Notes under the pieces: generated by a model
What the model was told of the DNA's origin: nothing
The model's input: the letters and a program-made list of their open reading frames with translations, nothing else
The model's database searches: none
Made by a program: the position numbers and the translations under genes
Shown: piece after piece, positions 1 to 61,430 of the stretch
How positions within the stretch are numbered: position 1 is the stretch's first letter
How the letters are laid out: each line of letters opens with the position of its first letter
Source of the DNA: Hormiphora californensis
Lineage: Eukaryota > Animalia > Ctenophora
Assembly: GCA_020137815.1 (NCBI GenBank)
Contig: CM035357.1
Coordinates: 186,001 to 250,000 of the forward strand
Direction: 5' to 3'
DNA: 64,000 nt

Positions 1-3000
1 CAAGAGTAGCAACAGCAGCCCCCGCCCCTACCTGTTTTCTAGTGTCGCAACAGCAGCCCCCGCCCCTACCTGTTTTCAAGAGTAGCAACAGCAGCCCCCG
101 CCCCTACCTGTTTTCAAGAGTAGCAACAGCAGCCCCCGCCCCTACCTGTTTTCTAGTGTGGCAACAGCAGCCCCCGCTCTACCTGTTTTCTAGTGTGGCA
201 ACAGCAGCCCCCGCCCTACCTGTTTTCTAGTGTGGCAACAGCAGCCCCCGCCCCTACCTGTTTTCAAGAGTAGCAACAGCAGCCCCCGCCCCTACCTGTT
301 TTCTAGTGTAGCAACAGCAGCCCCCGCCCCTACCTGTTTTCTAGTGTGGCAACAGCAGCCCCCGCCCCTACCTGTTTTCTAGTGTGGCAACAGCAGCCCC
401 CGCCCTACCTGTTTTCAAGAGTAGCAACAGCAGCCCCCGCCCTACCTGTTTTCTAGTGTGGCAACAGCAGCCCCCGCCCCTACCTGTTTTCTAGTGTGGC
501 AACAGCAGCCCCCGCCCCTACCTGTTTTCTAGTGTGGCAACAGCAGCCCCCGCCCCTACCTGTTTTCTAGTGTAGCAACAGCAGCCCCCGCCCCTACCTG
601 TTTTCTAGTGTGCAACAGCAGCCCCCGCCCCTACCTGTTTTCAAGAGTAGCAACAGCAGCCCCCGCCCCTACCTGTTTTCTAGTGTAGCAACAGCAGCCC
701 CCGCCCCTACCTGTTTTCTAGTGTAGCAACAGCAGCCCCCGCCCCTACCTGTTTTCAAGAGTAGCAACAGCAGCCCCCGCCCCTACCTGTTTTCTAGTGT
801 GGCAACAGCAGCCCCCACCCCTACCTGTTTTCTAGTGTAGCAACAGCAGCCCCCGCCCCTACCTGTTTTCTAGTGTCGCAACAGCAGCCCCCGCCCCTAC
901 CTGTTTTCTAGTGTGGCAACAGCAGCCCCCGCCCCTACCTGTTTTCTAGTGTGGCAACAGCAGCCCCCGCCCCTACCTGTTTTCAAGAGTAGCAACAGCA
1001 GCCCCCGCCCCTACCTGTTTTCAAGAGTAGCAACAGCAGCCCCCGCCCCTACCTGTTTTCTAGTGTAGCAACAGCAGCCCCCGCCCCTACCTGTTTTCAA
1101 GAGTAGCAACAGCAGCCCCCGCCCCTACCTGTTTTCTAGTGTAGCAACAGCAGCCCCCGCCCCTACCTGTTTTCTAGTGTAGCAACAGCAGCCCCCGCCC
1201 CTACCTGTTTTCTAGTGTAGCAACAGCAGCCCCCGCCCCTACCTGTTTTCTAGTGTTGCAACAGCAGCCCCCGCCCCTACCTGTTTTCAGTAGTAGCAAC
1301 AGCAGCCCCCGCCCCTACCTGTTTTCTAGTGTGCAACAGCAGCCCCCGCCCCTACCTGTTTTCTAGTGTAGCAACAGCAGCCCCCGCCCCTACCTGTTTT
1401 CTAGAGTAGCAACAGCAGCCCCCGCCCCTACCTGTTTTCTAGTGTCGCAACAGCAGCCCCCGCCCCTACCTGTTTTCTAGTGTAGCAACAGCAGCCCCCG
1501 CCCCTACCTGTTTTCTAGTGTAGCAACAGCAGCCCCCGCCCCTACCTGTTTTCTAGTGTGCAACAGCACCCCCCCCCCCCTACCTGTTTTAGTGTAGCAA
1601 CAGAGCCCCCCGCCCACCTTTTATGTGCAACAGCGCCCCCCCTCCTTTTTCTAGAACAACAGCACCCCCGCCCCTCTTTTCTAGTGTGGAACCAGCCCCC
1701 GCCCCACCTGTTTCAAGTAGCAACAGCAGCCCCCCCCCACCTTTTATAGGTGCAACAGCAGCCCCCACCCCTACTGTTTAGGGCAACACAGCCCCCCCCC
1801 TACTGTTTTCAAGAGTAGCAACAGCAGCCCCCCCCCTACCTGTTTTCAAGAGTAGCAACAGCAGCCCCCCCCCCCTGTTTTCTAGTGTCGCAACAGCGCC
1901 CCCCCCTCCCCGTTTTAAGGTGGCAACAGCGCCCCCCCCTCCCTTTTTTTAGGTGAAAAACACCCCCCGCCCCTTTACGTTTTCTAGTGTGCAAAAGCAG
2001 CCCCCCCCCCTCCGTTTTTGGGGCAACAGCACCCCCCCCGCCCCTACCTGTTTTCTAGTGTGGCAACAGCAGCCCCCGCCCTACCTGTTTCTTAGTGTGG
2101 CAACACTCAGCCCCCGCCCCTACCTGTTTTCTAGTGGTGTGGCGAAACAGCAGCCCCCGCCCTACCTGTTGTCTTCTAGTGTCGCAACAGAAGGCCCCCG
2201 CCTACATGTTTCAAGAGTAGCAACAGCAGCCCCCGCCCATACCTTGTTTCAAGAGGTAGCAACAGGCAGCCCCCGCCCCTACCTGTTTTCTAGATGTAGG
2301 CAACAAGCAGCCGCCCATACCCCCCTACCTGTTTTCTAGTGTGGCAACAGCAGCCCCCGCCCCCCCTACCTGTTTTCTAGTGTAGCAACAGCAGCCCCCG
2401 CCCCTACCTGTTTTCAAGTGTGGCAACAGCAGCCCCCGCCCCTACCTGTTTTCTAGTGTAGCAACAGCAGCCCCCGCCCCTACCTGTTTTCTAGTGTGGC
2501 AACAGCAGCCCCCGCCCCTACCTGTTTTCAAGAGTAGCAACAGCAGCCCCCGCCCCTACCTGTTTTCTAGTGTGGCAACAGCAGCCCCCACCCCTACCTG
2601 TTTTCTAGTGTAGCAACAGCAGCCCCCGCCCCTACCTGTTTTCAAGAGTAGCAACAGCAGCCCCCGCCCCTACCTGTTTTCAAGAGTAGCAACAGCAGCC
2701 CCCGCCCCTACCTGTTTTCTAGTGTCGCAACAGCAGCCCCCGCCCCTACCTGTTTTCTAGTGTGGCAACAGCAGCCCCCGCCCCTACCTGTTTTCTAGTG
2801 TGGCAACAGCAGCCCCCGCCCCTACCTGTTTTCTAGTGTGGCAACAGCAGCCCCCGCCCCTACCTGTTTTCTAGTGTAGCAACAGCAGCCCCCGCCCCTA
2901 CCTGTTTTCAAGAGTAGCAACAGCAGCCCCCGCCCCTACCTGTTTTCTAGTGTGGCAACAGCAGCCCCCGCCCCTACCTGTTTTCTAGTGTAGCAACAGC

Positions 3001-5018
3001 AGCCCCCGCCCCTACCTGTTTTCAAGAGTAGCAACAGCAGCCCCCGCCCCTACCTGTTTTCAAGAGTAGCAACAGCAGCCCCCGCCCCTACCTGTTTTCT
3101 AGTGTCGCAACAGCAGCCCCCGCCCCTACCTGTTTTCTAGTGTAGCAACAGCAACCCCCGCCCCTACCTGTTTTCTAGTGTCGCAACAGCAGCCCCCACC
3201 CCTACCTGTTTTCTAGTGTGGCAACAGCAGCCCCCGCCCCTACCTGTTTTCTAGTGTCGCAACAGCAGCCCCCGCCCCTACCTGTTTTCTAGAGTAGCAA
3301 CAGCAGCCCCCGCCCCTACCTGTTTTCTAGTGTCGCAACAGCAGCCCCCGCCCCTACCTGTTTTCTAATGTGGCAACAGCAGCCCCCACCCCTACCTGTT
3401 TTCAAGAGTAGCAACAGCAGCCCCCGCCCCTACCTGTTTTCAAGAGTAGCAACAGCAGCCCCCGCCCCTACCTGTTTTCTAGTGTGGCAACAGCAGCCCC
3501 CGCCCCTACCTGTTTTCAAGAGTAGCAACAGCAGCCCCCGCCCCTACCTGTTTTCTAGTGTGGCAACAGCAGCCCCCGCCCCTACCTGTTTTCTAGTGTG
3601 GCAACAGCAGCCCCCGCCCCTACCTGTTTTCTAGTGTGGCAACAGCGGCCCCCGCTCTACCTGTTTTCTAGTGTGGCAACAGCAGCCCCCGCTCTACCTG
3701 TTTTCTAGAGTAGCAACAGCAGCCCCCACCCCTACCTGTTTTCTAGTGTAGCAACAGCAGCCCCCACCCCTACCTGTTTTCTAGTGTGGCAACAGCAGCC
3801 CCCGCCCCTACCTGTTTTCAAGAGTAGCAACAGCAGCCCCCACCCTACCTGTTTTCTAGTGTGGCAACAGCAGCCCCCGCCCCTACCTGTTTTCTAGTGT
3901 GGCAACAGCAGCCCCCGCCCTACCTGTTTTCTAGAGTAGCAACAGCAGCCCCCGCCCCTACCTGTTTTCTAGTGTGGCAACAGCAGCCCCCGCCCCTACC
4001 TGTTTTCAAGAGTAGCAACAGCAGCCCCCACCCCTACCTGTTTTCAAGAGTAGCAACAGCAGCCCCCACCCCTACCTGTTTTCTAGTGTGGCAACAGCAG
4101 CCCCCGCCCTACCTGTTTTCTAGTGTGGCAACAGCAGCCCCCGCCCCTACCTGTTTTCAAGAGTAGCAACAGCAGCCCCCGCCCCTACCTGTTTTCTAAT
4201 GTGGCAACAGCAGCCCCCGCCCCTACCTGTTTTCTAGTGTGGCAACAGCAGCCCCCGCCCCTACCTGTTTTCAAGAGTAGCAACAGCAGCCCCCACCCCT
4301 GCCTGTTTTCTAGTGTCACAACAGCAGCCCCCGCCCCTACCTGTTTTCTAGTGTAGCAACAGCAGCCCCCGCCCCTACCTGTTTTCTAATGTAGCAACAG
4401 CAGCCCCCGCCCCTACCTGTTTTCTAGTGTGGCAACAGCAGCCCCCACCCCTACCTGTTTTCTAGTGTGGCAACAGCAGCCCCCGCCCCTACCTGTTCTC
4501 TAGTGTGGCAACAGCAACCCCCGCCCCTACCTGTTTTCTAGTGTGGCAACAGCAGCCCCCGCCCTACCTGTTTTCTAGTGTAGCAACAGCAGCCCCCACC
4601 CCTACCTGTTTTCTAGTGTAGCAACAGCAGCCCCCGCCCCTACCTGTTTTCTAGTGTAGCAACAGCAGCCCCCGCCCTACCTGTTTTCTAGTGTGGCAAC
4701 AGCAGCCCCCGCTCTACCTGTTTTCTAGTGTCGCAACAGCAACCCCCGCCCCTACCTGTTTTCTAGTGTGGCAACAGCAGCCCCCGTCCCTACCTGTTCT
4801 CTAGTGTTGCAACAGCAACCCCCGCCCTACCTGTTTTCAAGAGTAGCAACAGCAGCCCCCGCCCCTACCTGTTTTCTAGAGTAGCAACAGCAGCCCCCGC
4901 CCTACCTGTTTTCTAGTGTGGCAACAGCAGCCCCCGCTCTGCCTGTTTTCTAGTGTTGCAACAGCAGCCCCCGCCCCTACCTGTTTTCTAGTGTTGCAAC
5001 AGCAGCCCCCGCCCCTAC

Positions 5019-15692
<10,674 letters not shown>

Positions 15693-29125: not shown

Positions 29126-29220
29126 AAAGGATTAGCTTTAGGAATTGAGCTTCTTTTTACAGTTCCACTATAGAATTGTCTTGATTTATCAGACCACTAA
29201 ACACCCCCCTCATCTAGGAC

Positions 29221-34466: not shown

Positions 34467-35121
34467 ATTAGCATTTGATTTGAACACCTGAATCAACGTC
34501 GTTTTCCTGAATGCCTGAACCCACCCTAACACACGCGAGACCAGTCTGGAGGTCACCCAGTGGCCCCCACTCCAATCATCATGATGCCGCGGACGGTGAA
34601 ACCAGCCCCTCAAGGTTGGCACAGCGTTTTGATTTTTTTTCATTTTTGATTTTTTTCTCTCTCATTTTTTCCCTGCCCGGCTGAATGCCCGAAGGGGATT
34701 CCCCCAGATAATCGTTTTGGCACGCACAGCCAGCAGCCCCTCATGTACGCGCACCGCCACCCTCATCAAAACGCTGTGCACTGACCTGGTCCGTGGTCGG
34801 TCTCGGGACTCGGGTCTGACCACGCTGCAGGTGGTGCTGTGGCCTGTGCAGGTGCAGCCAATATGACGGAGCACCACTGACGGCTGACCACTGTCAATTG
34901 AGAATTGAATGGTGAACTGCCTTATTTCAATTTGCCAGTATGTACTTTAGTTTGAACTGTGAACATCATAAAATGACCCCATGCGTTGTAGTGATGACAT
35001 CCAGCAAGTAAAGAACTATGGGAGACCTTGGTGACATTGGTAGCGCTATGGACTCTCAATATACGACTTTAAACCGTTCAAATTCGCATCGTATTTTAAA
35101 ACAATTGTCAGAAAATTAAAT

Positions 35122-40537: not shown

Positions 40538-41661
40538 CTATTTATTGATAACTTCTCTCCTAAGAGCAGCAGCTAGTGCAGAACTCATGGCTGGTTGTCG
40601 TCCCCTTGTTTGGCTGCTCCAGAACCTCTGGTGGGGTAGCACTGGTAGCAGCGGTAACTTGTGCAACCGCCACTCTCGCTGACTTGGGTCGTACCGCCTG
40701 GTTGGGCTGGGGGATTAGAGGGTTATAGCAGAGTGCTTCACAGACACGAACATGTTTTGCTTTAAAAACAGATTAGAAGTCGGAAAAGTAACGAACAACG
40801 AACACATGAATTATATGTAATACGGTGTAGTATGGCATTCATACAATTATACTGATTACTGGGCCTGGGGCTTTACACGGCTACATGGACTAATAATTCC
40901 ATACCTCATGTGTTTTCAGTGTTTCCAGTCCCACTGCCCGTTTAGTGTCAACTATCTCTTGTTTTCTCTGTTGCCAATACACCCTTCTCTCCTCGATTGT
41001 TTGAGGGGTTGGAACCTGATATGGGTAGTAGGGGTATTTCAAGAAAAAGTACCGGTAATCGGAAAACTGAAAAGTAACAATTTAGCCATCACTAGCATTT
41101 GCGTTTTTCCACTGTCAAGCCAATGCTCTGACCACAGTTCTCGCGCGAGAATGGGTCAGGCCAATGCTCTGACAATTTTTCCACTTACAATTTCAGATGG
41201 TGAAGCATCTCCCTCGTCTGTTCTTGCATCTTCCATCCACTTTTGAGCAGCGTTACTATCTTCACTTACCTAGGAAAGGAGAAAATGTAACTTCCCTTTC
41301 TTTTTATGGCATGTGCATGAATCAGAACGACGCGACGTCCACCGCTTTTATTTGAGCTGAGATGCTTGGCTTCATGGCTTGTGTCCGAAACAACACTGAA
41401 ATTCCCACGCCGCGCGGGACAGAAAACAGTGAAACCACTACTTTTGTCACAGTTTTTGTTCCGCGCCCTACAGACACGTCTCTACATGTGGTCTGCGAAA
41501 TCAGCGAATTTACTGCAGAATCCTGTGCTCCCGGTGTGATGTGAACTTTCGACTCGAAAGTTTCGAGCGGAGACAAGTATCTAGGAGAAGACTGGGAGAG
41601 TGTAAGAGATAGAGAGAGAGAGAGATAGAGAGAGGGAGAGAGAGAGAGGGAGAGAGAGAGG

Positions 41662-41693
<32 letters not shown>

Positions 41694-44600
41694 GAGATAG
41701 AGAGAGGGGGAGATCGTCAGACAGCGTCTGAGCGTCAGAGAGATACAGAGAAGGTTTTAACACGCCTGAACGATACATGCTTAACACTTTATACATTCGC
41801 GAGCAAGAGACGATTTAGAGACGTGTCGAGGACCGTATTACTGTGACGTATAGCTAATAAATCATCACTGCTCTCACACGAGAAGTTATGTTGTTCAAGA
41901 TAACTCTTTCGACTAGAGCACTGTCACCAGCATCTCTTATTATTAATAAAATCATCACCACTCACTCATACAAACCTTTGGTGGACGGGTAACTTTTAGA
42001 GGAGGGAGGGAAGACTTGTTTTGTACAGGCTCCTTGATCTTAGGAATTGGTTGGGCTGGCTCAGGTATATCAGGGGAGGGTTCTCGAGCTGCAGGGACGG
42101 GGGTAGGTTCTTGAGCTGGGACTGGTGATGGCTCAGGAGCTGCTGGTGCCGATGGTTTGGGGAATACTAACAAATCTTCTAGAGAGAGGAGGGAGTTTTG
42201 AGTCAAAATAAAGCTGGGTTGTATTACAATATACCCACATGTTACCGTAGCAACTTATAGTTATTACCAGATTGTATTGCTATTTAAGGACTAATGAGTT
42301 AGAAAACAACGATTTGGCAAAATGATAACTTTGGTATCATGTCCAAGTTTCCCTATTTATAGATCTAGGATGAAACTATAGCAGCACTGTAAGTACCTGG
42401 TATCTCAGGATATATTTGGTCGGGTGGAGGGGGTAGCCCACTTCCTCCTGGACCATCAATAATCTCAGTATTCTCCCTTTCTATGTCTTTCAGAAAAGTC
42501 TCACAATCTAATCTAGATTTCTTGAGGGCAGCTTCAAGATCTGCCATCTCCTTTCACTGATCGGCTATCAAACTCTTCCCTCTGACTGGGAGGTGAGTGG
42601 ATTTTAGACAGAAATTAAACAGGATTTAAACAGGATTTAAACAGGATTTAAACAGAATTTAAACAGAATTTAAACAGGAATTAAACAGGAATTAAGCAAC
42701 TAAAGATCAGAACACTCGAGTCTGTGAGGTGGGGATTGGGGTTTAGACAGTAAACTTACGATTGGTATTCCGTTTCGGAGCTGAAAGGAAAGTTATTTGG
42801 GAATTTTGGTGGCAATCAACACACCCTGATCCATCAATAAACCCACCCTCATTTAGCCCACTAGACCTCATTAAGTTTACAATACAAAAAACACCCCTCA
42901 TCAGAAATCATAATACTTTAAATGCCATCGTCCGTCCCACCAACCAATGTTTACTACAACTTCATGACCTCTGCCTCCAGTTCCTGACTGTCAGCACATC
43001 CTCCCTTTATCATCTGTAGTGCTTGAAGGGACAGGGCTGCATTGTGTCGCACCATAATACTTTTAAACAGGTCAAAATTAACCGCCGCAAACACTACTCT
43101 TTAAAATTTTCCCTTAGAGAAGCCCTTTAAAATATAGATAGAGAGATAGACTCTATTAGAGGGTAGAGGAAAATAGCTCCCCTATCTCTGCGGCCCTTTC
43201 CCAATGACCGCGCATTCGTTCGCCTCGTCCTTCTCTCTCGTCTCCGCCCCGTATCTCTATTCTTACTCTACGTCTTTTTCTCTCTCTCTCATTTGTCTCT
43301 CCTCTCCTCTCGCTTTTTTCTTTCTCTCTCTTGTCTCTCTCCTCGCTCTCTCCTCTTGTTCTCTCTCTCTTCTTTACTCCTTCTTTCTCTCTCTTTCTCT
43401 CCCTTCTCTCTCTGTTCCTTCTTATCACCTCTCTTTCTCTTTTCTCTTCTTTTTTCCCCCCCTCTTTTCCCTTTTTTTGTCCCCCATTTGGGGGCGCCCG
43501 GGGCCCTTCTTTTTGCCCGTTATTCCTAATGTCCTTTTTTGTTTTTCCCTTTGGGGAATTTTTAAAGGGAAAAAAGGGGGAAAAATGAACGGGGTTCCAC
43601 CCAAAAAAAGAATTTTTGTCTACCTCCCCAAGTAAAAAAAAACCCCTCACCCTAAAACCCCCTTTTTAAAAACAAATTTAAAAAAAAATAAAAAAAAATT
43701 TTTAAAAAAAAATTTAACCCCCCCCAAAAAAAAACCCCGCCCCAAAAAAAAAAACACGGCCCCCCCACATTTTTTTTTTTTTTTCCCCCCTTTTTATTTC
43801 CCCCCCCCCCCCCCCCTTTTTTTTTTTTTTTGTTTCCCCCCCTTTTTTGGGCTTTTTTTTTTTGGGGTCTTTTGTTATTTTTTTTTTTTTTTTCTTTTTT
43901 TTTTTTTTTCCCTTTGTTTCCCCCCCCCTTTCTTTCCCGGGGTTTCTCTTTTTCCCCCCTTGCTTCCTTCTTTCCCCTTTCTTTGCCCCCTTTTTCCTTT
44001 TTCCCCCCTCCTTTTCTCCTTTTTTTTTGGGGCCCCGGGGCCAAAAAGGGGGAATTTTTTGGTTTAAAACGGGGGGGAAACCGGGGCCCCCTGGCTTTTT
44101 CTCGGGGGGGGTTTAAAAATTCCCTTTTTTGTGAAAATTTTTTTTTGGGGGCCCCTTGGGAAAAAAAATTTTTTTTAAAAATATTTTGTTTTTTGTTTTA
44201 AAAGAAAACAAGTTTTTATTTCAATTTTAAAAAATCCTTTTAAAATTTCACCCTTTTTTTCCCAAATCTTAAACCCCTTCCTTTTCCCAAAACCAACAAA
44301 AAAGGTTTTTTCCCCCAAAAAAATTTTTAAACTGAGAGTCCCCCCCCTCGGTGTTATCAGTTTCTTTAAACCCCTTTCCTTTAAGCAATCATCACTCTTC
44401 TTGTAGCCCTTCCCTTTCCCCTGGTTTACATGTCAGCCCCGGGGGGGGTCTTTTTTGGCCTTTTTTGGGGTTCCGGTTTCCCCCCCCCCCCCCCCGGGCG
44501 GTTTTGGGGGGAAAAACCCAGGGGGTTTCTTTTGGGGGGGGGTGGGGGGAGTGGGGGGGGGGTGGGGGTTTTTATTTTTGGGGGGGGGGGTTTTGGGGGG

Positions 44601-47600: not shown

Positions 47601-50600
47601 TGAAATCTTGGATTTTAGTCGAAAATTGTCCCATAAACAACTTAAGCATGGTCCCGACTGGCCATTTCAATCAGAAGTTTGTCAAAAATGCCTAAATCCA
47701 AAAAACAAGAAAATCAAGTTACGGTTCTCCTAGTTGGCAGATTTCAACAATTTGCCCAAATCTAACCATAAATCTGATACACACGAAAACTTGGTTCTTG
47801 GTAGAAAAATGACCATTTTAACGATTGGCACTAGTTTCAAATTCCTATCTCAACGTTTTCAATGGTTTAGGGGCCAAAAACCTTCAAAAAATGGTAAAAA
47901 ATCAATTTTTGACCGTTTTACAGTCATTTTAGAGATTCGACTTCAACGGCAATCGATTCTACGTGCAAAAATAGGTGGGGGTGACATATTTCGTGTGCTA
48001 AGTCATTATGGATTTTTCGGGACCACGTTTAATATAGCCAATTTTGACCCAAATCAAATAAAAGTAAAAAAAAAGATTTTAGGCAATGGAATGTTTTTTC
48101 CCGCACCGTAGCGCCATTCTGTAGACCCTCAGCTACCACGTACAAGTGGTGGTTTCCCGTAGCATGCTAGGTCGTGTTAAAGTTTCACCAGGCACGCCGT
48201 GACCGCCCATATAGAATAGGCAAGTACGATACGTCGGTGTAGAGGGTGGCTCTCTCGAACATGAAAACTCTCACCACTGCTGCTATGGGACTAGGGGCAC
48301 ATCCCATGAATAGCCCCCGGAGTTGTTTGTAGAGGCGCCCATCATACGTAAAGAATGAACTCTCCAGTACCAGATCTAGACACTCATGGACATCTACCAA
48401 CTCTAGACCCCTTAGGTTCAAGACGTCCAAGTGTTCCTCGGCAAAAGATACCAAGGACGATATACATGCCTGTATGTTCAGGTTGGTGTAGAGGGCACTG
48501 ATATCTCCACTGCAAAACTTCTTACCACGGAGAACCTCTGGTGACAGATCTCTGAGCCATTGTAGATGAGTATGGATGTTTTTCAGGTGTGGAGAGACCT
48601 CATCAAGCAATGGACTCAAGATGGAGGTTATTAACCAGGCTAGTTTAGCGGTGGGTGAGCCAATACAGGATACTATGGGACGTACCTTGCATGTAGATAA
48701 GAACTGATCCGGTGATACTATCTGACTAGCGTCGAATTTGTGCGTCTTAATCAGAATGTACATGCACGGTAACCTGGATTGAGTAGTGTGGAGTGCCAAG
48801 ATCATGTCCTTACCCATTTTCCTCCGTATGACGATCTGCTCCCACAGGTTGTTACATTTGCTCTGGAGGGTTTGGGTCATGTTGGTTATCTGGGTTAGGT
48901 ATGTGACAGGTGTCGGTTTTGCAACCAACACCTGGCTACCAGCGTAGTTTCGGGTCGGCTGGACTAGCTGGTACACCCCAACTGAGCTGTCCAGGTGTAG
49001 TTTGGTTAGCTCATGTTGTATATCCCTGGGGGTGACCACAAACTCTCCCCCCTTGTCGGACACTGAGATGTGTAGTTCAGACTTCTTGGCTCTCAGAGAT
49101 CTGAGGCCAGCGGCCTGCTGGTTAGATAGGTTGAACGGTACCCGGCAGGTTGACAGGAGTCGTGTGGCCAGCTGTTGCAAGTTGCGTAGATCGTCCTCTA
49201 TTTGGCAATAGGAGACGGGGGGTGGTTTAAGATGACGCTTTCCAATTGGAGCCCCCTCACTCTGCCATGACTGAATCTGTGTGCATACTGTGGGCCTCTC
49301 CTCTGTGGCAACTTTCCATCTAAGTCTATACGCGGTCGCTGCGATCTCATGGTTAACCTGCTGATGGAGCTTCTCATCTACTCGAGTGGACAGAGAGAAA
49401 TTAGGACCTAGGTCTAATAGCGACTTCTCATCATCCGAAAGCTCTTCCAGAATCGGGGTGGTACGATTCTCCATCAGGACACTAGGTTCCACTGGATCGG
49501 TACATGCGGCAGGGTGCTCAGTGTAATAGACAGGGGTGGCGGGAGGTCTATTACACTGAGCACCCTGCCGCATGTACCGATCCAGTGGAACCTAGTGTCC
49601 TGATGGAGAATCGTACCACCCCGATTCTGGAAGAGCTTTCGGATGATGAGAAGTCGCTATTAGACCTAGGTCCTAATTTCTCTCTGTCCACTCGAGTAGA
49701 TGAGAAGCTCCATCAGCAGGTTAACCATGAGATCGCAGCGACCGCGTATAGACTTAGATGGAAAGTTGCCACAGAGGAGAGGCCCACAGTATGCACACAG
49801 ATTCAGTCATGGCGGAGTGAGGGGGCTCCAATTGGAAAGCGTCATCTTAAACCACCCCCCGTCTCCAATTGCCAAATAGAGGACGATCTACGCAACTTGC
49901 AACAGCTGGCCACACGACTCCTGTCAACCTGCCGGGTACCGTTCAACCTATCTAACCAGCAGGCCGCTGGCCTCAGATCTCTGAGAGCCAAGAAGTCTGA
50001 ACTACACATCTCAGTGTCCGACAAGGGGGGAGAGTTTGTGGTCACCCCCAGGGATATACAACATGAGCTAACCAAACTACACCTGGACAGCTCAGTTGGG
50101 GTGTACCAGCTAGTCCAGCCGACCCGAAACTACGCTGGTAGCCAGGTGTTGGTTGCAAAACCGACACCTGTCACATACCTAACCCAGATAACCAACATGA
50201 CCCAAACCCTCCAGAGCAAATGTAACAACCTGTGGGAGCAGATCGTCATACGGAGGAAAATGGGTAAGGACATGATCTTGGCACTCCACACTACTCAATC
50301 CAGGTTACCGTGCATGTACATTCTGATTAAGACGCACAAATTCGACGCTAGTCAGATAGTATCACCGGATCAGTTCTTATCTACATGCAAGGTACGTCCC
50401 ATAGTATCCTGTATTGGCTCACCCACCGCTAAACTAGCCTGGTTAATAACCTCCATCTTGAGTCCATTGCTTGATGAGGTCTCTCCACACCTGAAAAACA
50501 TCCATACTCATCTACAATGGCTCAGAGATCTGTCACCAGAGGTTCTCCGTGGTAAGAAGTTTTGCAGTGGAGATATCAGTGCCCTCTACACCAACCTGAA

Positions 50601-53600
50601 CATACAGGCATGTATATCGTCCTTGGTATCTTTTGCCGAGGAACACTTGGACGTCTTGAACCTAAGGGGTCTAGAGTTGGTAGATGTCCATGAGTGTCTA
50701 GATCTGGTACTGGAGAGTTCATTCTTTACGTATGATGGGCGCCTCTACAAACAACTCCGGGGGCTATTCATGGGATGTGCCCCTAGTCCCATAGCAGCAG
50801 TGGTGAGAGTTTTCATGTTCGAGAGAGCCACCCTCTACACCGACGTATCGTACTTGCCTATTCTATATGGGCGGTACATTGATGATGCCTGTACCGTATG
50901 TTATACGAGAGAGGAGGCAGTGTGTTTCTTTGATAAGATAGGTGAGCAGGATCCGGACCATCTTATCAAATGGGAGGTTGACTTTCCAGAGGGTGATGAC
51001 TTTGTACCTTTCTTGGGTACTAACATCCGGGTCACCGAATCTGGGGAGGTGCAGACGCGTTTCTACCGCAAGGAGGCTCGCAAGAATATCACACTGCACG
51101 CGAACAGTCACCACCCTATTTCCACTAAAATCCAAACTGTCCGTAATTTCTACGCCACAGCGAGGCTAAGTGCATCAGATTCGGAACAAGAGGAGGCATC
51201 CCTGAGAATAGTGGACAACCTGCTGATTGCTAATGGGTACCAGAACCCTCGTCAGTTCGCACAACAACAGAGCTGTCGTTTGTACCAGGGTCAGAAGCAG
51301 CAGGTGGAGGACTGTGTTATTTTGAAACTGCCTTACATCTCTGAATCATTTTCATTATCGATCCAGAAGTTTATCTCTAGCCGCTCTCTTCCTATCAAAA
51401 CAGTATTTACTCCAGGTACCAAGCTACGTAACATCTTCTGTAGCTCACGGCCCCTTGACAATGGAGCAGCTTACTGTGGGGGGAGATCATGTAAAATATG
51501 TCCACGGCTAGAGGGGGAGAGGAACTGCCAGGTGACTGCTCCAGTATACCGGATTACCTGTAACATCTGTAAAGAGATCTACATCGGGGAAACGGGGAGA
51601 ACAGCTAAAGACCGCTTTGGAGAACATCTCCGGTATGCCACCTCCCCTACGTTGAAATCTTACTCGGAGATGGCACTCGCAGTGCACTATAAACAGTTTC
51701 ATAATAAGACAGTACCTGATTTGATTTTTGAGATTATTACAACAGAGTCACGTATCTTATATAGAAAGATTATAGAAGCATATTATATTAACAGAGAGAA
51801 GCCTACTATTAATTTAAAAGAAGAGTTGACTGATCTATCTAGATTCCTTATTTCTTAATATTATCCGTTTTTAGTATTTTCTAACGGCCATATTGGTCAT
51901 TGAGTATTTTTAGCTAGATATCTTTTTGAGCAGTCGCGTGATTCCTATCTTATTTCACTATCTGATCTTATTTCTTTACTATTTAAACCCCGTTTATTTC
52001 CTAGTCTTTACTTTTTGTTTTATAATTTTTCCAGTCCCGCGTGTAGTTTTTCAACTTTTTACTATTTCACTAAATTAGCTTAGCTTTAGAATTTTCCAGT
52101 AATCTTTATTTTACGATTGGTATGTGTACAGTTTTTCTAACATGTATATTCCGTATATTATAGCCTGAAGATGGTGCTGTGCGCCGAAATTGATAGCGTT
52201 ATTCTACAATAAAATCTACGTCTACTCATTTGTCCAGCCGGAAGGAGAAAACAAAACTTCCTCACTGATATGCGGCTAATAAACAATCAACCGATCCTTA
52301 TTCTCTAGAATAATAGAATACTGCAGGTATATAATGTGGAGAGTTAGACCTCATGAAACTACCTATAAAAACTACCTGGCCTCACGACTCACGTGATGTG
52401 GGTTGCTGTTAATAATCAATAAACCCTTGCTTACGGTTGTCTTGTTCGACCCTCCCTCCCCGCGGAAAATAATAAAAAGGGTTTGAACAAAACAAGCTTA
52501 CGGACTAGAAGGTAATGGATATTTTATGTTTTTACATTTAATTCCCTTGCCAGCGTCTTAAGTCTTTGTGGGCAAATGGTTAAACCCACAGCTCACTCAA
52601 AGTGGACAGTGACCAGTTTTATTGTACCAGCAGCAACAGACTAGCTTTGTCCTTTGAGTCGACACACATAATTGGGGCTTTCACCTGCTTGTTCTATTGT
52701 TATGTGAGACAGGGTCGAACAAAGCAACTATATTTTTGCCTGCCCTGCGGAAGTAAGGTGTTTATTCAGTTTTATTCGTCCATGCTGCCTCCAAGTCGTG
52801 TCTACCAGTAGACTCACCAGTGCTATAGTGTTCTCTAGTCTACTAGTAAACTGCCAAGTGCTATTCTTCTATCAGTCTACAACAGTTAGTTCTTCTGTAT
52901 AATGAAGAAGCTTGTGCCTCCCCTTATATTATGAAGCATGAATATTGAATAGAGCCCTATCAGGTGCCTCTCACAGGCAGGTTGTAGAAAGCCCCCTTTG
53001 TCCATGCCAATAGTAGAGAATAGAGATCCAATAGAGCCTTATTGTCCACAGTGGACAATGTCCACTTGTGGTAGTATAAAACACCCTCCGCCACCCATTC
53101 ATTCCCCACTTCACAACTATCATTATGAAGCTGTTTATCTGTCTCTCTGCGGTGCTCCTAGCCACCACCACCGTCCTTGCTGAGGATGATCTGTGCTGGG
53201 GAGAGATCCAGGAGGGAGCCCAACTAAAATGGCCCATGAAAACCTGCTACACCTCCAGAGACGAGGCAGTAGAGGCTTGTGAAGCCATGGATGGAAAGTG
53301 CAAGGGACTCTACAAGAAGAGTGATGATTGTTTCAAGATTGGAAAGAAACAGGTTGTCAAGGAAACTGATAACACCGAGAGGTACTCCCAGTTCTATGGA
53401 CCCTGCCCAGAGGAGGATTAGAAATCTGAATCTAGTTCTGGTGTCTCATGAGTGCGGAATCTGATTATCTGAATCTTTCCGGTGTCTCAGTTTCTGTTGT
53501 CGGGACTAAAATAGTTTTTAAAGAGTGTGTGGTTTTAAAGATTTTATGTGGAAAATTTTTGTAGACATTAAATGGCAGTTTTAAAAAATGTTTGAAAAAG

Positions 53601-54673
53601 TAAATTACTTCTCGTTTTCTATTCTAACTCCCATTTCGTATCCATCACGAGGATACTCACACAAAACAGTATCACGTTGAGCTCCTACCCTAATAAGTGA
53701 TAAGTAATTATTGTCGGAGATCAAACCTGCAGGTCAATCAACTGCCACACCAACTAACATCTAATCCGAGTCTGTGTTTCGGATTTCGACCCTCCCCTGG
53801 CTCTCTAAAATCATACTACCTCTGTACAATACCTGTGTATAAGTTCCGCCCAGTGCACGTCCCTTGTTGCACCCCGCAATAAACTGGGATGATGTGATGT
53901 GGAGGTCTGAAGTGAAGCTCTCCAGTAACTCCTCTACCAACTGCTTGTAATCGTCATGAAGCACGTGGTACTCCTGGTTATCCTCTGTCCCACTGTCAAA
54001 CACTATTGGGGTGGAGGGTGAGGTGATAATCATAGTGGGGTGGAGGGAGATGGTGATGGGGGGGGGGGAGTGGTGCAGGTCATGTAGCACGTGGTATTCC
54101 TGGTTATCTTCAGTACCACTATCAAACACTAAGGGGGGGGGGGGTGGTAATAATAATATTGGGGGGGGGGGGGTGCACTGTGCAGGTCATGTAGCACGTG
54201 GTATTCCTGGTTATCTTCAGTACCACTGTCAAACACTGGGGAGGGGAGGGGGGGTGGTAATAACACTGGGGAGGGGGTGCAGGTCATGTAGCACGTGGTA
54301 TTCCTGGTTATCTTCAGTCCCACTGTCAAACACTATTGGGGGGGGGGGGGGTGGTAATAACAATATTGGGGTGAGGGGGGTGCAGGTCATGTAGCACGTG
54401 GTATTCCTGGTTATCCTCTGTCCCACTATCAAACACTAGAGGGGGAGGGGGTTTACTAACACTAGTGGGGTGGAGGGTAATGGTAATAACACTGCGTGTC
54501 TGTGTTTCTGTCAATGTCTGTGTGTCTGTCTCTTTTTGTCTTTCACAGTATCACTCTCTCTCACCTAAGCAGTGTTGGTCCACGAAAGACTCAATTGGGA
54601 CCATCCATACAGGAGAATTGAGAAACCCAACAACAGAATCATAGATCCAGGAATCTTCATCGTCCCCAGACAT
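40538..54673 (-). CDS. CFAP36: Cilia- and flagella-associated protein 36 (BART-like domain)
   Basis: Exon 54565-54673 reads MSGDDEDSWIYDSVVGFLNSPVWMVPIESFVDQHCL and exon 53833-54002 reads VFD..YKQLVEELLESF. QALQMIK lies near 43020, further exons lie at 40.9-42.6 kb, and the C-terminus ALAAALRREVINK* ends at 40538, resembling vertebrate LAEKLKEEVINK. Part of the gene is obscured by noisy sequence at 43-45 kb. Confidence 0.85.
45150..45233 (-). pseudogene. 5' part of an inverted paralog of the 53125 secreted-protein gene; remainder unreadable
   Basis: The reverse complement reads ATGAAGCTGTTTATCTGTCTCTCTGCGGTGCT, identical to 53125 onward. The upstream TATAAAA and ATTCCCCACT are also shared. 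Confidence 0.65.
45874..49531 (-). pseudogene. Penelope RT/GIY-YIG ORF of the left arm, split by a transposon just before YIDD
   Basis: ORFs 48185-49573 and 45874-46863 together reproduce the 784-aa plus-strand ORF. Confidence 0.9.
46861..48201. mobile_element. Non-autonomous Chapaev/CMC-like foldback transposon
   Basis: CACGG...CCGTG termini and a 4-bp TSD ACCG (46857-46860, 48202-48205). Two 664-bp inverted arms surround a 13-nt spacer. Confidence 0.8.
49546..51858 (+). CDS. Penelope-like reverse transcriptase plus GIY-YIG endonuclease (5'-truncated at the palindrome centre)
   Basis: Motifs SDKG, KTHK, RPIVS, GDISALYTN, GLFMG..SP, RYIDD, PFLG and VYRITCNICKEIYIGETGR..RFGEH. Confidence 0.95.
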   Translation, partial: VYYTEHPAACTDPVEPSVLMENRTTPILEELSDDEKSLLDLGPNFSLSTRVDEKLHQQVNHEIAATAYRLRWKVATEERPTVCTQIQSWRSEGAPIGKRHLKPPPVSNCQIEDDLRNLQQLATRLLSTCRVPFNLSNQQAAGLRSLRAKKSELHISVSDKGGEFVVTPRDIQHELTKLHLDSSVGVYQLVQPTRNYAGSQVLVAKPTPVTYLTQITNMTQTLQSKCNNLWEQIVIRRKMGKDMILALHTTQSRLPCMYILIKTHKFDASQIVSPDQFLSTCKVRPIVSCIGSPTAKLAWLITSILSPLLDEVSPHLKNIHTHLQWLRDLSPEVLRGKKFCSGDISALYTNLNIQACISSLVSFAEEHLDVLNLRGLELVDVHECLDLVLESSFFTYDGRLYKQLRGLFMGCAPSPIAAVVRVFMFERATLYTDVSYLPILYGRYIDDACTVCYTREEAVCFFDKIGEQDPDHLIKWEVDFPEGDDFVPFLGTNIRVTESGEVQTRFYRKEARKNITLHANSHHPISTKIQTVRNFYATARLSASDSEQEEASLRIVDNLLIANGYQNPRQFAQQQSCRLYQGQKQQVEDCVILKLPYISESFSLSIQKFISSRSLPIKTVFTPGTKLRNIFCSSRPLDNGAAYCGGRSCKICPRLEGERNCQVTAPVYRITCNICKEIYIGETGRTAKDRFGEHLRYATSPTLKSYSEMALAVHYKQFHNKTVPDLIFEIITTESRILYRKIIEAYYINREKPTINLKEELTDLSRFLIS
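52159..52208 (+). ncRNA. Hammerhead-like motif in the Penelope 3' UTR (mirror at ~45525-45572, minus)
   Basis: TAGC-CTGAAGA-T-GGTGC-TGT-GCGCC-GAAAT..ATT-CTA. Stems I and III are weak. Confidence 0.55.
53125..53421 (+). CDS. Small secreted 6-Cys protein (PAN/apple-like spacing), nested antisense in a CFAP36 intron
   Basis: Single-exon 98-aa ORF with signal peptide MKLFICLSAVLLATTTVLA. TATAAAA lies at ~53075 and ATTAAA at ~53567. Confidence 0.8.
   Translation: MKLFICLSAVLLATTTVLAEDDLCWGEIQEGAQLKWPMKTCYTSRDEAVEACEAMDGKCKGLYKKSDDCFKIGKKQVVKETDNTERYSQFYGPCPEED
54003..54440 (-). repeat. Four intronic copies of the CFAP36 exon-2 acceptor plus the first ~50 exon nt
   Basis: AG|TGTTTGAYAGTGGKACWGARGATAACCAGGAATACCACGTGCTACATGAC at ~54078-54130, 54185-54237, 54282-54334 and 54385-54437. 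Confidence 0.95.
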
Positions 54674-54685: not shown

Positions 54686-55755
54686 GGTTAATTGATTAGG
54701 TAATTGATTAGTTAATTGATTAGTTAATTAAGTGGTTAGTTAATTGATTAGTGAGTTAATTAAGTGGTTAGGTAATTAATTGATTAGTTAGTTAATTAAG
54801 TGGTTAGTTAATTGATTAGTTAGTTAATTAACCCTTTGAGACCGATAGGGTCACCAGTGACCCCACGCTAATTATGCATCTAGCGTCTGTCCGAACTAAA
54901 TCTAAGAAGTTTAAATGGTTTTCCGGGTTAGAATAGACACTTTTTGGCTGTTTTTGGGGTCATTTTAAGCTTTGAACATCTTAGTTTACTAGAAATGCCA
55001 ACTCTAAGCCATAAAAGTTGAAATTTTGGTGTAAAGTTGGCCATACCTCTAAAACGGTATAAGTAAGCCAATAATGGACCTACAAATCAAAAGAAAACCA
55101 TAGGTTTTACCCCGGTATGAAGTTTCGTGATGATTTGATCAAATTTACATCGCTCAGAGGGCAAATAATGCCGGGGTCACCAGTGACCCTATCGTCCCCT
55201 AACGCTAATATAGAAATTTGGATTTTACGTGCATTTCTAAAGGATTGGCCACCGATAAAGGTCTAAAACGGCATTTTTCAAACGGGTGCTAGCGACTAAC
55301 CGACTCCATCAGTGTTATCTATACATCTTAGAGAGTCGCTGAAAAATTTTTTGAGATTCATGCTCCTTCATAAAAATTTTCATCTCGGCCAATTTGAAAT
55401 TCCAAAATCGGCTACAGATGAGATACAGAGGTCCATAGGGTGTGTAAAATGTGCAGAATGGCCGGGTTTATATAAGTGTTATGAAGAAACATAGGGTCTA
55501 AGATGAGCGGTTTTCGAGTTATGAGGCAAAATAGCTACGAAATCTCAATTGTTTGCATTCCATTTGAGACCGATAGGGTCACTGGTGACCCCACAGAAAC
55601 AAAGTTCGTAGAGACGAGTTTTTTGGTTCTGCTTTCAAGTAGGCTTGTTAGGAGTGTCTCCAGCAATTTTCAGATATTTCTGTCGATGGCGCCACTATCG
55701 GTCCCAAAGGGTTAAGTGGTTAGGTAATTAATTGATTAGTTAACTAATTGATTAA
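54686..55755 (-). repeat. CTAATCAATTAA / CTAACC minisatellite upstream of CFAP36, interrupted by a piggyBac-like MITE
   Basis: TAATTGATTAG units at 54690-54830 and 55716-55755. Confidence 0.8.
54832..55711. mobile_element. piggyBac-like non-autonomous element
   Basis: TTAA TSD (54828-54831, 55712-55715) and TIRs CCCTTTGAGACCGATAG / CTATCGGTCCCAAAGGG. The terminal motif recurs internally at ~55175 and ~55565. Confidence 0.88.
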
Positions 55756-57262: not shown

Positions 57263-59201
57263 GACGAACGTGCTGTGCCAAATGCAGGTGTAAATGTCCC
57301 AGTGCCTCTGTGGATGATTCTAAGCTAGATATTCTCATTCAGAATCTACTGGACTCTTATCTAGATGCGTTCATAGCGAACATTTTCATGTCAATGCACA
57401 TTAACCTATGGATATTTAGATTATATACTTTATTTAGGTGTTTAGAAATATTCAGTTTCCGATTAGTATCTTGAATACTTTATAGGTTCGTTTAGAGAAT
57501 AGATATAATACATCTTCAGATTCGTATCGAGATTTTGACATGTTTGTTATTGTAAGTTTGTTATTGTGTTGAGATTTGTAAATAAATTATTTTTGAAGTT
57601 GCGATATTTTTACGTAACTAAACCAGAAAACAATTGAGATTTGTAAATGTGTTACTACTAGCTAGATGGGGTGGGGACATGTCCTGGAACTGATAAAGAT
57701 AACTTGTCCAATGTCACAATATTCATCCTGATCCTTCAAAAGATCCTTCAAATGATCCTAAATCACATTGTACCATTGTTCTGGATCTCCATGTTTAGTT
57801 GGTCATTTACTTGGTCATTTAGTGTCTCCAAAGAAATCATTAGGTATATCATTTATACCTTTTATGTGCTGTCTGAGTAAATGTAGTTTTTGTGGATGAT
57901 TCCACTTACTACTCATCCCCCTGAATTACAGTGCTGCTTGCAGTGAAAATACTGTAACGCAGAATACAGTAATCTGCGCGGAATTTACGTAACGTGTGAG
58001 TGCTTTTGTCAACAATCTGTTAAAAGTACTTTGTGGTCAGCACGTACTACCGCGCCATTGGACGCGTGCGTCTGTGCTCATGTCATACATTCTCCGTTCC
58101 ATTACAGTATTCCCACTACAAGCGACCGTGTAAGATGCCATGTATTTCACCCCATAATAGCTGTTAAAAAATCTCACCATTACCCGTATGGCAGTTCCAG
58201 ACCATCTCGATTTGGTTCTCAAAACCTACTCTGAGCGCACTGTCGTGCGAGCCATTTGATATGAGCCAATTTCCCCTGGGGAGTCGGTAGAAATACCCAC
58301 ATTAATACTAAACTTATGAATCAGCATAGGGCCTATCTACCGTTTTAGAGATAATTGGCTCCAAAGTAAGCAAAAATATAAATTTCCAACACAGTGTCTC
58401 CTAGTCACAAACAGTCTCCCAGACATGGCTTAGTATTGCAATGTAGACTCTACATATACAATCTAATATAATCTACATCCTTTATCCTGATAGACGCCTA
58501 AAATTAAAATAACACGGCTGAGAATTGAGATTATCGGTAAGCTTCACACTGCACCAATGTCCCGGATTTCAACATGCTAAAACTTGTCATACTGCATGCT
58601 TCGCTCGCTGAGGAGAGTGCAGTCATTTGTGAAACAAGCTAAACCGGGTCTTTTCGCGGATAAAGGACTGAGGACATACTTGGTTTAATATTCCTTGCGC
58701 CTTGGACAAATCTTCCAAGCCGCACACTCCAAAACTTTACAAACTCACCAGTAAAACCTCCCTATTTGGAGAAGCCCATGTATTGAAGAGCGCTACCTTT
58801 TAGTGAACCATAAAAAAAGTTCAACTTTCAAGAGCGCACCAGATCCATCATCCAAGAGTGCACCCCATCCAGAAGATACCACATCCAAGTACAAGATGTG
58901 TTCTCTTCTGGATGGAGTGTGCTCTTGGACGGTCTTGAACTTTATTATGGTTCATTATCCCGCATTGGGGTCTGTAGCAAATGCCAAGCACCGGCGCTGT
59001 GGCCTGTGGGATTTTTAAAAAAAACAAGACGACAAAAAAAATTAAGATTGATAAAAAATTCTTGCGGAATAGACGCGCGGCGTATTTGCGCGCCCTGTAA
59101 CGCCGCGCGCTTCGCGCGTTCGCGTTGTAAATCCAAAAATTTAATTTCCTTTCAAATTTTAAAAGTTCACAACAAAGCGCCAGTTTTTGTTTCGATCACC
59201 G

Positions 59202-60440
59202 ATGGTTAAGTTTCCCTTTCGCCAGGCTCATCCCCTGGTCCGAAAATGGGCGCAGCCGCTCGTTTTTGGCAAAGGGCCCATCACGGAGGCTATTCGTCGA
59301 CAGTCTCCTTTGATCGACCGCCAGATTCGAACGCCCATACCTTGCCTAAACCCCGTGTCTGCGTTCGTCTTCCGAACGAAATATGAGAAGAATCCGGAGC
59401 TACGGCTGGTGAGGCATTTGGTTAAAACGGATGATGGTGGCTGTCTTGGTGTGGATAAAATGGAGCGAGATGGAGTGGAAGGCGATCCAAACAAACCAGT
59501 TGTTGTCGTGTTTCCCGGGGGTAATGAGGTTTCTATTTCCACTAAAATTCAGACACTTTGTGCCAGTTACTTGGACGCATCATATGGTGATGTCTTCATG
59601 TGCAACTACCGAGGAAAGTTCAAGACACCACTTCTCACAGCTCAACTGACCTTCCAAAACGGCCGTTTCAACGACGTGTACCAAGTAGTAAACTACATAG
59701 CTGACTTATATCCAGATCGCAAAATCCTCATTTCCGCGGACTGTTTCGGGGGTTCTTGTGCGCTGGATTACCTCTTGACATCCTCCTATGCACCTGTCAA
59801 TGAGAATGTTATTGGTTGTGTAGCCCACAGTGTTCAAATGAACCTAATTGAAACAAACAAAGGAATCCTAACCGAGCCTGGGTACTCTCTGTTTGTTAAA
59901 AACTACAACAAATACCTGCAGCACGTGCTAACTAACGATCGCTACGGATCTGTCGGTCTGCCTGATATGGTCCGGAAGAAGATGGGTGATAAGCTGTACG
60001 AGACAATGGAGAAGTTGGAATTGGAGACGATTGAAGACCACACCCAACTATACATGGGGTTTAGTGTGTTGCTAGATAACGCTTTTGATAGTGCCGAGGA
60101 CTACATTTACCAGACTAGTCCCCATTGTAAGCTACAGAGGGCATCCCTCACCCGCCCAATGGTAATAATCAACTCGCAGGATGATTTCACTGCGCCTGTC
60201 AGTGAGGAGGATATTGATATCTTTGAGCGGGATCCAAACCTCTGTTTCTGGCTAAATCCTAATGGTGGACATTGCTCCTACGTCCGCACAATGTATCCCA
60301 CGGTCACTAACTACATCGATGAGATGGTCGTTAATTGCTCGGATATTCTGGTGTCACATTCTGAGGCAGAGAAGAAGAGAGAGCATGAGAAGAAGAGAGA
60401 GGATGAGAAAATATGTGAACAGGCCATGGACACTAATTAA
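59202..60440 (+). CDS. Alpha/beta hydrolase, ABHD1/2/3 (YheT)-like, intronless, with Cys at the nucleophile elbow
   Basis: Motifs TDDGGCLGVD, PVVVVFPG, NYRG, ADCFGG, INSQDD and GGHCSY. Confidence 0.8.
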   Translation: MVKFPFRQAHPLVRKWAQPLVFGKGPITEAIRRQSPLIDRQIRTPIPCLNPVSAFVFRTKYEKNPELRLVRHLVKTDDGGCLGVDKMERDGVEGDPNKPVVVVFPGGNEVSISTKIQTLCASYLDASYGDVFMCNYRGKFKTPLLTAQLTFQNGRFNDVYQVVNYIADLYPDRKILISADCFGGSCALDYLLTSSYAPVNENVIGCVAHSVQMNLIETNKGILTEPGYSLFVKNYNKYLQHVLTNDRYGSVGLPDMVRKKMGDKLYETMEKLELETIEDHTQLYMGFSVLLDNAFDSAEDYIYQTSPHCKLQRASLTRPMVIINSQDDFTAPVSEEDIDIFERDPNLCFWLNPNGGHCSYVRTMYPTVTNYIDEMVVNCSDILVSHSEAEKKREHEKKREDEKICEQAMDTN

Positions 60441-60511
60441 CGTGGTTCACATCTGTCAACAGGCCATGGACACTAATTAACGTGGTTCACATCTGTCAAC
60501 AGGCCATGGAC
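60418..60511 (+). repeat. 40-bp tandem duplication spanning the hydrolase stop codon
   Basis: AACAGGCCATGGACACTAATTAACGTGGTTCACATCTGTC, ~2.3 copies. Confidence 0.9.
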
Positions 60512-61172: not shown

Positions 61173-61430
61173 CTGTCAAAACCATCTTAGATGTGGCTTT
61201 GGGATTTCTCGCGGTGGTGAGAGAGAGTTAGTTTCAGACATTGAAAACAAAGGAAACAAAGAATTCGATATTTCGTCGCTTCAAAACCGTCTTACATTTC
61301 CCAGCTGCCCCACACTTCTAACATAGGCACACTTTTTAACCATTTCCAAAACTACCCTCATTTAACCTTTATAGGCACAATTCCCCTGTCTCTACTTTTA
61401 ACATCTCTATCTCCCTCTCTAGGACTCATT

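What the first reader, a model, noticed from the sequence alone, without database searches (positions are those of the whole stretch)
53833..54440. Independent second case: four decoy acceptor/exon-start copies in CFAP36 differ only at silent sites, in mosaic combinations
Seen: the true exon reads GAC AGT GGG ACA GAG GAT AAC CAG GAG TAC CAC GTG CTT CAT GAC. The four upstream copies carry GAT/GGT/ACT/GAA, GAC/GGT/ACT/GAA, GAC/GGG/ACT/GAA and GAT/GGG/ACA/GAG, all with GAA and CTA further on. All six variable sites are third-position synonymous, so every copy still spells VFDSGTEDNQEYHVLHD, and the variants are shuffled as if recombined. No canonical donor follows the copies. The same phenomenon at an acceptor in an unrelated gene argues for a genome-wide process rather than chance. 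It also raises the question of how the spliceosome skips four good acceptors.
Basis: partly seen in the sequence, partly recalled or inferred. Interest (0 to 1): 0.85.

Follow-up and report, generated by a model that had tools for sequence, protein, structure and literature searches.

The report
Comb-jelly "mirage" repeat stores exon alleles
An intron of a cilia gene in a probable comb jelly holds four extra copies of the next exon's start that the one spliced message seen skips; they differ only at silent positions, likely because they were copied recently from different working versions of that exon in a very variable species, so this is a known repeat type with a useful clue to how it forms.

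Summary
Observation confirmed. Four tandem copies of the CFAP36 exon-2 acceptor plus the first 50 exon bases sit in intron 1, and all 6 variable sites are silent. This is a 'mirage', an exon-boundary minisatellite known from amphioxus; this scan has met many in other animals. One RNA contig joins exon 1 to the true exon 2 and skips every copy. The silent-only pattern needs no selection on the copies. Working alleles of this exon differ at 14 listed places, all silent, at about 0.36 per silent site. Five duplicated exon pairs in the window differ by 69 silent and 0 non-silent changes. Two of the six sites (GAA, CTA) are allele states of the working exon in other haplotypes. For the other four, free drift gives P = 0.001-0.005 and snapshots of one exon lineage P = 0.009-0.03, so recent copying from different alleles is the best reading. 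That step is inferred. The mosaic signal rests on one site, and 'genome-wide' could not be tested.

The parts
54565..54673 (-). CFAP36 exon 1 coding part (36 codons + 1 nt), donor GTGAGA at 54564
   Evidence: RNA joint 54565 to 54002
54003..54564 (-). intron 1 (562 nt, GT..AG) holding the array
54455..54477 (-). degenerate fifth partial copy: C-rich tract, TAG and about 7 exon-like bases resembling the true acceptor
   Evidence: seen by eye; not scored
54386..54437 (-). copy 1 (farthest): AG + 50 exon-like nt; 3 silent differences from the exon; use would give a stop at codon 37
54283..54334 (-). copy 2: 4 silent differences; use would give a stop at codon 35
54186..54237 (-). copy 3: 5 silent differences; use would give a stop at codon 36
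54079..54130 (-). copy 4 (nearest): 6 silent differences; in frame with exon 2, use would insert 42 residues into the BART domain
54004..54078 (-). C-rich spacer before the true acceptor (75 nt; the other three spacers are 46-56 nt); branch-point-like CTCAC at about -17; G-runs on the + strand
53833..54002 (-). true exon 2 (170 nt), donor GTATTG; terminal unit of the array; polymorphic at 14 listed third positions
40908..43121 (-). later CFAP36 exons (tblastn pieces 43121-42957, 42553-42398, 41269-41201, 41024-40908)
   Evidence: query P0002 (Mnemiopsis protein)
6..5052 (-). comparison case: 38-nt unit (last 32 exon bases + donor) of a Kelch-repeat gene, about 134 copies

Best explanation
The four copies are an exon-boundary minisatellite ('mirage') whose last unit is the working start of CFAP36 exon 2; they are skipped in the one spliced contig seen, and they are silent-only likely because they were written recently from different working alleles of that exon. 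Shown: copy anatomy; exon 1 joined to the last acceptor; working alleles differ at roughly a third of silent sites with no amino-acid change listed; two of the six copy states occur on working exons. Inferred: one founding duplication made the unit (all four copies share the same break after the 17th codon); misaligned pairing between the two chromosomes of a heterozygote then moved exon-start sequence into the copies by gene conversion or unequal crossing-over, faster than new mutations collect; purifying selection acts only on the terminal unit. Inferred for splicing: the last acceptor wins because it defines a 170-nt exon with the exon-2 donor (against 296-603 nt) and has the nearest branch-point-like motif; leakage into copies 1-3 would meet a stop and would likely be removed by nonsense-mediated decay.
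For: RNA contig in run X8 (depth 3.1) joins 54565 to 54002 and runs to 53939, 14 nt past the copied part. A second X1 haplotype contig (53857-53982, depth 46.7, 9 differences) and X5 contig 8 run through the unique exon and carry GAA (53971) and CTA (53959); X5 contig 9 carries CTA, and no X5 depth at 53971 lacks GAA. Depth sums identify the contigs (46.7+110+60.2 = 216.9; 396.5+124.9+1560.5 = 2081.9). The RNA contig carries GAA but not CTA, a further combination. All 16 listed allele differences at 14 places are silent. Window against second haplotype: 9 silent differences at 25 silent sites (0.36); mean among copies 0.26. Variable sites per silent site: 11 of about 24 in the unique exon among 4 alleles, 4 of 9 among the copies (Fisher p = 1.0). 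Five duplicated exon pairs elsewhere in the window: 69 silent, 0 non-silent in 1032 nt, pS 0.32. In X5 one copy-type contig at 3.0 times single-copy depth has the exon's own states at 53989, 53986 and 53983, and X5 depth over copies 2-3 was low (171 against about 520), so that sample's copies largely match its working exons. Leakage of non-silent change in copies: 18 of 100 donor-array units and one X5 loose end with a changed first exon base. In the published amphioxus BflGb6 alignment, read by eye, haplotype-1 copies carry AAG and GTC where their own exon has AAA and GTT and the other haplotype's exon has AAG and GTC.
Against: Four of the six copy states (GAT 53995, GGT, ACT, GAA 53983) were not seen on any working allele. 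The RNA allele has the window exon's state at 53989, 53986 and 53983; for the DNA alleles these places lie near contig ends, where the tool lists nothing. A graph branch in X1 at 53986 with about 50-fold unexplained depth hints that the second haplotype differs there, but the letter was not shown. Only one RNA contig covers the junction (1 of 3 RNA runs laid), from a metatranscriptome whose animals may have another array, and contigs drop rare isoforms. Exchange itself was not observed; the four-gamete signal rests on one site. The in-window duplicates may be paralogues and not alleles.
Confidence: 0.68

Rival explanations
1. Serial snapshots: the copies were duplicated one after another from a single exon lineage while it collected silent changes, and were never rewritten from other alleles.
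For: Differences from the exon rise in order 3, 4, 5, 6 from farthest to nearest copy. Needs no recombination between chromosomes.
Against: In this model copies drift at all sites, so pN/pS between copies is at least 0.5; P(4 of 4 silent) = 0.009-0.029 (my derivation). The nearest copy is the most different, not the least.
Confidence: 0.12
2. The copies, or their letters, are an assembly or polishing artefact: reads of different alleles were stacked or polished onto repeat units.
For: The window holds what look like unmerged haplotypes, an N gap and noisy stretches (1250-2410, about 43100-45300). [quoted passage not shown] The letters of copies 2-4 were not read directly in any run.
Against: A second sample has a copy-type contig at 3.0 times single-copy depth and at least two different upstream flanks. 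The X1 contig shared by copy 1 and the second haplotype has depth 110, about two units, not the 200 or more expected if copies 2-4 had the same letters; X1 has 52-63-fold cover over copies 2-3.
Confidence: 0.08
3. The copies are translated some of the time (alternative acceptors or micro-exons), and selection on the protein keeps them silent-only.
For: No non-silent change and no indel in 4 x 50 exon-like bases while spacers differ by 4-10 substitutions and 6-31 gap columns per pair; copy 4 is in frame.
Against: Copies 1-3 run into stops at codons 35-37 and no array GT scores above 5 of 9; copy 4 would put 42 residues into the BART domain; the RNA contig skips all copies; non-silent variants occur in the donor array and in one X5 copy contig.
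Confidence: 0.05
4. Chance: four mutations arose in freely drifting copies and all fell on silent sites; the other two sites are exon alleles.
Against: P = 0.001-0.005; the donor array shows the same bias (binomial p = 0.009-0.019).
Confidence: 0.05

Closest known systems
Amphioxus 'mirages' (Adh3, globins BflGb6/BflGb9, troponin C, PGBD5). Seen: passages of PMC3087553 section 16 and its supplement 4; one passage of PMC3902484. The original Adh3 paper was not read.
   Same: Tandem copies of an intron 3' end plus exon start, upstream of the real exon; AG kept; splicing undisturbed; concerted evolution and differing copy number between haplotypes reported; highly heterozygous marine animal (amphioxus heterozygosity recalled).
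   Different: Here in a probable ctenophore. The four copies have no non-silent change, whereas BflGb6 copies include replacements, a stop and indels (by eye). The word 'synonymous' occurs 0 times in the main text of either paper. Ebner et al. call the generating mechanism unclear; here allele data point to copying from working alleles.
Human CBS 844ins68. Seen: introduction and passages of PMC2630376.
   Same: Duplicated intron/exon junction; splicing removes the upstream exon piece and keeps the downstream one; gene conversion between the silent copy's chromosome and working alleles was proposed.
   Different: One extra copy; the skipped copy carries a harmful missense change, the opposite of silent-only; low-diversity species.
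Human F7 intron 7 37-bp VNTR. Seen: abstract of PMC1557585. ABCA7 intron 18 VNTR: search listing only.
   Same: Minisatellite whose end unit spans the exon boundary, leaving identical pseudo-sites that stay silent; closest match to the 38-nt donor array at 6-5052.
   Different: Donor side; the scanning rule shown there concerns 5' splice sites in mammals and does not explain skipping upstream acceptors.
Tandem exon duplication with mutually exclusive splicing (recalled, not read here)
   Same: Exon-like copies with a low ratio of non-silent to silent change.
   Different: Those are whole exons with their own donors and are translated; these are 50-nt exon starts with no good donor.

Membership tests
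mirage (exon-boundary minisatellite) | head-to-tail repeats whose unit spans an intron/exon boundary | tested here: met
   TRF period about 97-107, 3.8 copies; five copies in register; each has AG + exon start
mirage (exon-boundary minisatellite) | terminal unit is the authentic exon edge | tested here: met
   only the copy at 54003 continues into the BART-coding exon and donor
mirage (exon-boundary minisatellite) | normal mRNA is made; extra splice sites are skipped | tested here: met
   one RNA contig, depth 3.1, 1 of 3 RNA runs laid; rare isoforms cannot be seen in contigs
mirage (exon-boundary minisatellite) | copy number or unit content differs between haplotypes | tested here: inconclusive
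   X5 has about 3 copy-equivalents of one type; X1 cover over copies 2-3 is about one haplotype; an X1 joint 54023-54143 (25 letters on the short side) suggests another spacer layout; no phased read spans the array
mirage (exon-boundary minisatellite) | somatic length instability (reported for Adh3) | not testable with these tools
   needs single-molecule reads from tissues
CFAP36 (BART-domain) gene | N-terminal ARL2_Bind_BART domain closer to CFAP36 than to other solved BART proteins | tested here: met
   PF11527; the only 2 PDB sequences at E up to 1 are CFAP36, E 9e-19; 78% identity to a 379-aa Mnemiopsis protein whose later parts map to the window
mutually exclusive tandem exon duplicates | each copy has its own donor and is spliced into mRNA | tested here: not met
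   no array GT above 5 of 9 consensus matches; stops at codons 35-37 for three copies; RNA skips all
intron gain by tandem duplication of an AG/GT proto-splice site | matching donor in a copy and acceptor at the same place in the exon | tested here: not met
   GT positions listed; by reading no internal AG/GT pair would restore the exon

The most novel reading that the evidence does not exclude
In very diverse species these intronic decoys are a turning-over archive of working exon alleles, and the traffic runs both ways: copies also convert or replace the real exon start. Non-coding repeats would then be held under indirect protein-level selection and would reshuffle exon alleles. Genome-wide, the silent-site content of mirages would show that they arise by exchange between homologous chromosomes and would date their turnover.
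Probability: 0.25. Interest if true: 0.6.

Novelty: new member of a known kind. Interest (0 to 1): 0.3.

Why it matters
As a structure it is ordinary. Its value is as a marker: alleles here differ at about a third of silent sites, so each copy can in principle be traced to an allele. That makes the origin of mirages, which Ebner et al. 2010 call unclear, testable with phased long reads. It is also a caution: a low dN/dS in an exon-like intronic copy is not evidence of translation when the species is this variable. I found no report of mirages in ctenophores or of a silent-site bias in them (searches; most subscription papers, including the original Adh3 work, are outside the library).

Tried and rejected
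Metagenome pattern scans: 0 matches for a degenerate exon pattern; a 20-letter pattern gave 2 loci that match over only 20-24 bases and are unrelated. RNA run X7 had no listed piece or joint on exon 2 and X10 laid nothing; neither shows absence. The protein P0001 also joins exon 1 to exon 2 without copies, but its tail is not CFAP36-like and it looks like a predicted model, so I did not count it as RNA evidence. My first split of the donor array failed on a wrong anchor and was redone. The third ankyrin-BTB exon was first compared in the wrong frame (1 silent, 12 non-silent, with stops) and was replaced by the open frame (13 and 0). For the donor array I dropped the noisy stretch 1250-2410: all 113 gap-free units give 8 silent and 8 non-silent distinct variants (169 and 24 by copy); the 100 clean units give 8 and 4 (150 and 18). 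Graph-branch reasoning on X5 contig ends gave contradictions at this depth and was dropped. G-quadruplex-driven instability: two motif matches on the + strand, no test, and the paper search returned 0. Paper searches with 0 results. One search gave no nuclear synonymous-diversity figure for Pleurobrachia in its listing.

Full report
Observation. The minus strand carries CFAP36 exon 1 (CDS 54673-54565), a 562-nt GT..AG intron and a 170-nt exon 2 (54002-53833). Inside the intron are four copies of the acceptor AG plus the first 50 exon bases, separated by C-rich spacers of 46-75 nt. All encode the same 17 residues as the exon. Six sites vary, all third-position and silent. With 18-26% of possible changes silent, P(6 of 6) is 3e-5 to 3e-4. 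Two of the six only separate the copies from this exon. The four-gamete test is positive in 3 of 15 pairs, all with site 53995, so the mosaic needs just one exchange or repeat mutation.

Gene and organism. The exons match Pfam ARL2_Bind_BART, the 2 PDB hits are CFAP36, and a 379-aa Mnemiopsis protein is 78% identical and maps further exons to 43121-40908. The best hit is an EukProt protein at 98% whose id format I recall as Pleurobrachia. The organism is therefore probably a pleurobrachiid comb jelly; this is an inference. The related Hormiphora californensis has about 3.2% heterozygosity (PMC8527503, passages).

Splicing. Eleven runs were listed; five were laid. One RNA contig (X8, depth 3.1) joins 54565 to 54002 and runs 14 nt past the copied part, so it uses the true acceptor. 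Use of copies 1-3 would hit stops at codons 37, 35 and 36; copy 4 is in frame and would add 42 residues. A yTnAy motif lies at about -17 of the true acceptor, at -40 of copy 2, and within 60 nt of none of the others (the consensus is general knowledge, not measured in ctenophores). Exon definition, branch-point position and NMD are therefore likely, untested reasons for the skip. Contigs cannot show rare isoforms.

Why silent-only. Laying contigs on exon 2 listed 16 differences at 14 places; all are silent third positions. The second X1 haplotype differs from the window at 9 of about 25 silent sites over 53857-53982 (0.36). As a control, a block duplicated within the window (ankyrin-BTB and Cys-rich genes; likely unmerged alleles, possibly paralogues) gives 69 silent and 0 non-silent differences in five exon pairs, pS 0.32. 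Two alleles are thus expected to differ at about 3 silent sites in the copied 17 codons and at no others; the copies differ from each other by 1-4 (mean 2.3) and from the exon by 3-6. Directly, GAA (53971) and CTA (53959) lie on working-exon contigs of the second X1 haplotype and of X5, and the RNA allele has GAA without CTA. At these two sites it is the assembled exon that is unusual.

The other four sites. They were not seen on working alleles: the RNA allele has the exon's state at 53989, 53986 and 53983, and for the DNA alleles the places are near contig ends where nothing is listed. Free drift gives P(4 of 4 silent) = 0.001-0.005; serial duplication from one exon lineage, where pN/pS between copies must be at least 0.5, gives 0.009-0.029. 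Zero non-silent changes in 4 x 41 sites bound the copies' own drift at 0.018-0.073 per site, well below their silent divergence of 0.26. The copies are therefore young relative to the variation they carry, which points to sampling of standing alleles. In X5 one copy-type contig at 3.0 times single-copy depth has the exon's states at 53989, 53986 and 53983, and X5 cover over the window's copies 2-3 is low, consistent with copies tracking the working exon, though the tool under-detects divergent contigs. Exchange between chromosomes was not observed; minisatellite conversion between alleles is recalled from human work and my search for it returned 0.

No direct selection on copies. The 38-nt donor array of a Kelch gene (6-5052) shows the same bias with leakage: in 100 clean units, 8 silent and 4 non-silent distinct variants at 9 and 21 sites (p = 0.009-0.019), 150 against 18 by copy, and 82 of 100 units still translate as the exon. 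With the noisy stretch included the distinct counts are 8 and 8. One X5 contig of unshown depth has a changed first exon base in an acceptor copy, which would be Val to Gly (loose end); it may be an error.

Artefact check. The assembly has noisy stretches, a gap and apparent unmerged haplotypes, so stacking or polishing of alleles was a real rival. Multi-copy depth and different upstream flanks in a second sample, and X1 depths that fit copies 2-4 differing from copy 1, argue for a real array. The letters of copies 2-4 were not read directly.

Known kin. Earlier notes of this scan pointed to amphioxus 'mirages', which I checked in PMC3087553 (section 16 passages, supplement 4) and PMC3902484 (one passage). 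The definition fits. In the BflGb6 alignment, read by eye, haplotype-1 copies share two silent states with the other haplotype's exon but also carry replacements, a stop and indels. CBS 844ins68 (PMC2630376, introduction and passages) and the F7 VNTR (PMC1557585, abstract) are human parallels. The scan has logged many mirages in worms, urchins, abalone and a shark, including one silent-biased case explained as preserved older exon versions; no note held the word 'ctenophore'.

Verdict. A new member of a known class in a new phylum, with an explained silent-site pattern and a partly tested, allele-based account of its origin. Interest 0.3. The bold reading, two-way traffic that puts intronic copies under indirect protein selection, has probability about 0.25.

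Noticed in passing
window 6-5052 (-): About 134 copies of a 38-nt unit made of the last 32 exon bases plus donor of a Kelch-repeat gene; one Ala third position shows all four bases; mostly silent variation with 4 low-frequency non-silent variants in the clean part.
   Followed up: yes
window about 7300-24400 against about 25300-35900: A block of genes (Cys-rich Pacifastin-like repeat gene, ankyrin-BTB gene) is present twice, parts of it inverted, 72-88% identical by blastn, with identical protein in five exon pairs and pS about 0.32: likely unmerged alleles of an extremely diverse species.
   Followed up: partly
window 23859-24063 against about 35550-35595: A 40-nt repeat starting at the exon-2 donor of the ankyrin-BTB gene has 5 units in one copy of the gene and about 1 in the other; units include donor-like GTGAG motifs.
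   Followed up: partly
window 12659-12774 against about 29935-29975: A 44-nt intronic unit directly before an acceptor of the Cys-rich gene is present about 2.8 times in one copy and once in the other.
   Followed up: partly
window 60414-60511 (+): A 40-nt repeat (2.5 copies) spans the end and stop codon of a 425-aa alpha/beta-hydrolase-like ORF (59163-60440; weak Hydrolase_4 hit).
   Followed up: no
window 45442-52292: Reverse-transcriptase-like ORF with a GIY-YIG domain (49486-51858, Penelope-like by recall) in nested, 99%-identical inverted copies inside CFAP36 intron 2.
   Followed up: no
window about 43100-45300: Noisy, homopolymer-rich stretch that is a degraded inverted copy of 53072-53393 and runs into the start of CFAP36 exon 3, where tblastn shows a stop; looks like a base-calling or fold-back artefact.
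   Followed up: partly
window 53080-53421 (+): Small ORF with a hydrophobic N-terminus and several Cys, nested on the opposite strand in CFAP36 intron 2; covered by RNA contigs in two runs; no Pfam hit.
   Followed up: no
window 54832-55715: Element with inverted ends and internal palindromes, at very high DNA depth in both samples, flanked by a 4-16-nt TTAG/TTAA-type repeat, just upstream of CFAP36 exon 1; likely a non-autonomous transposon.
   Followed up: no
window 61245-63574 (+): Two adjacent long ORFs (225 and 543 aa) without Pfam hits, possibly one gene split by a frameshift or short intron.
   Followed up: no
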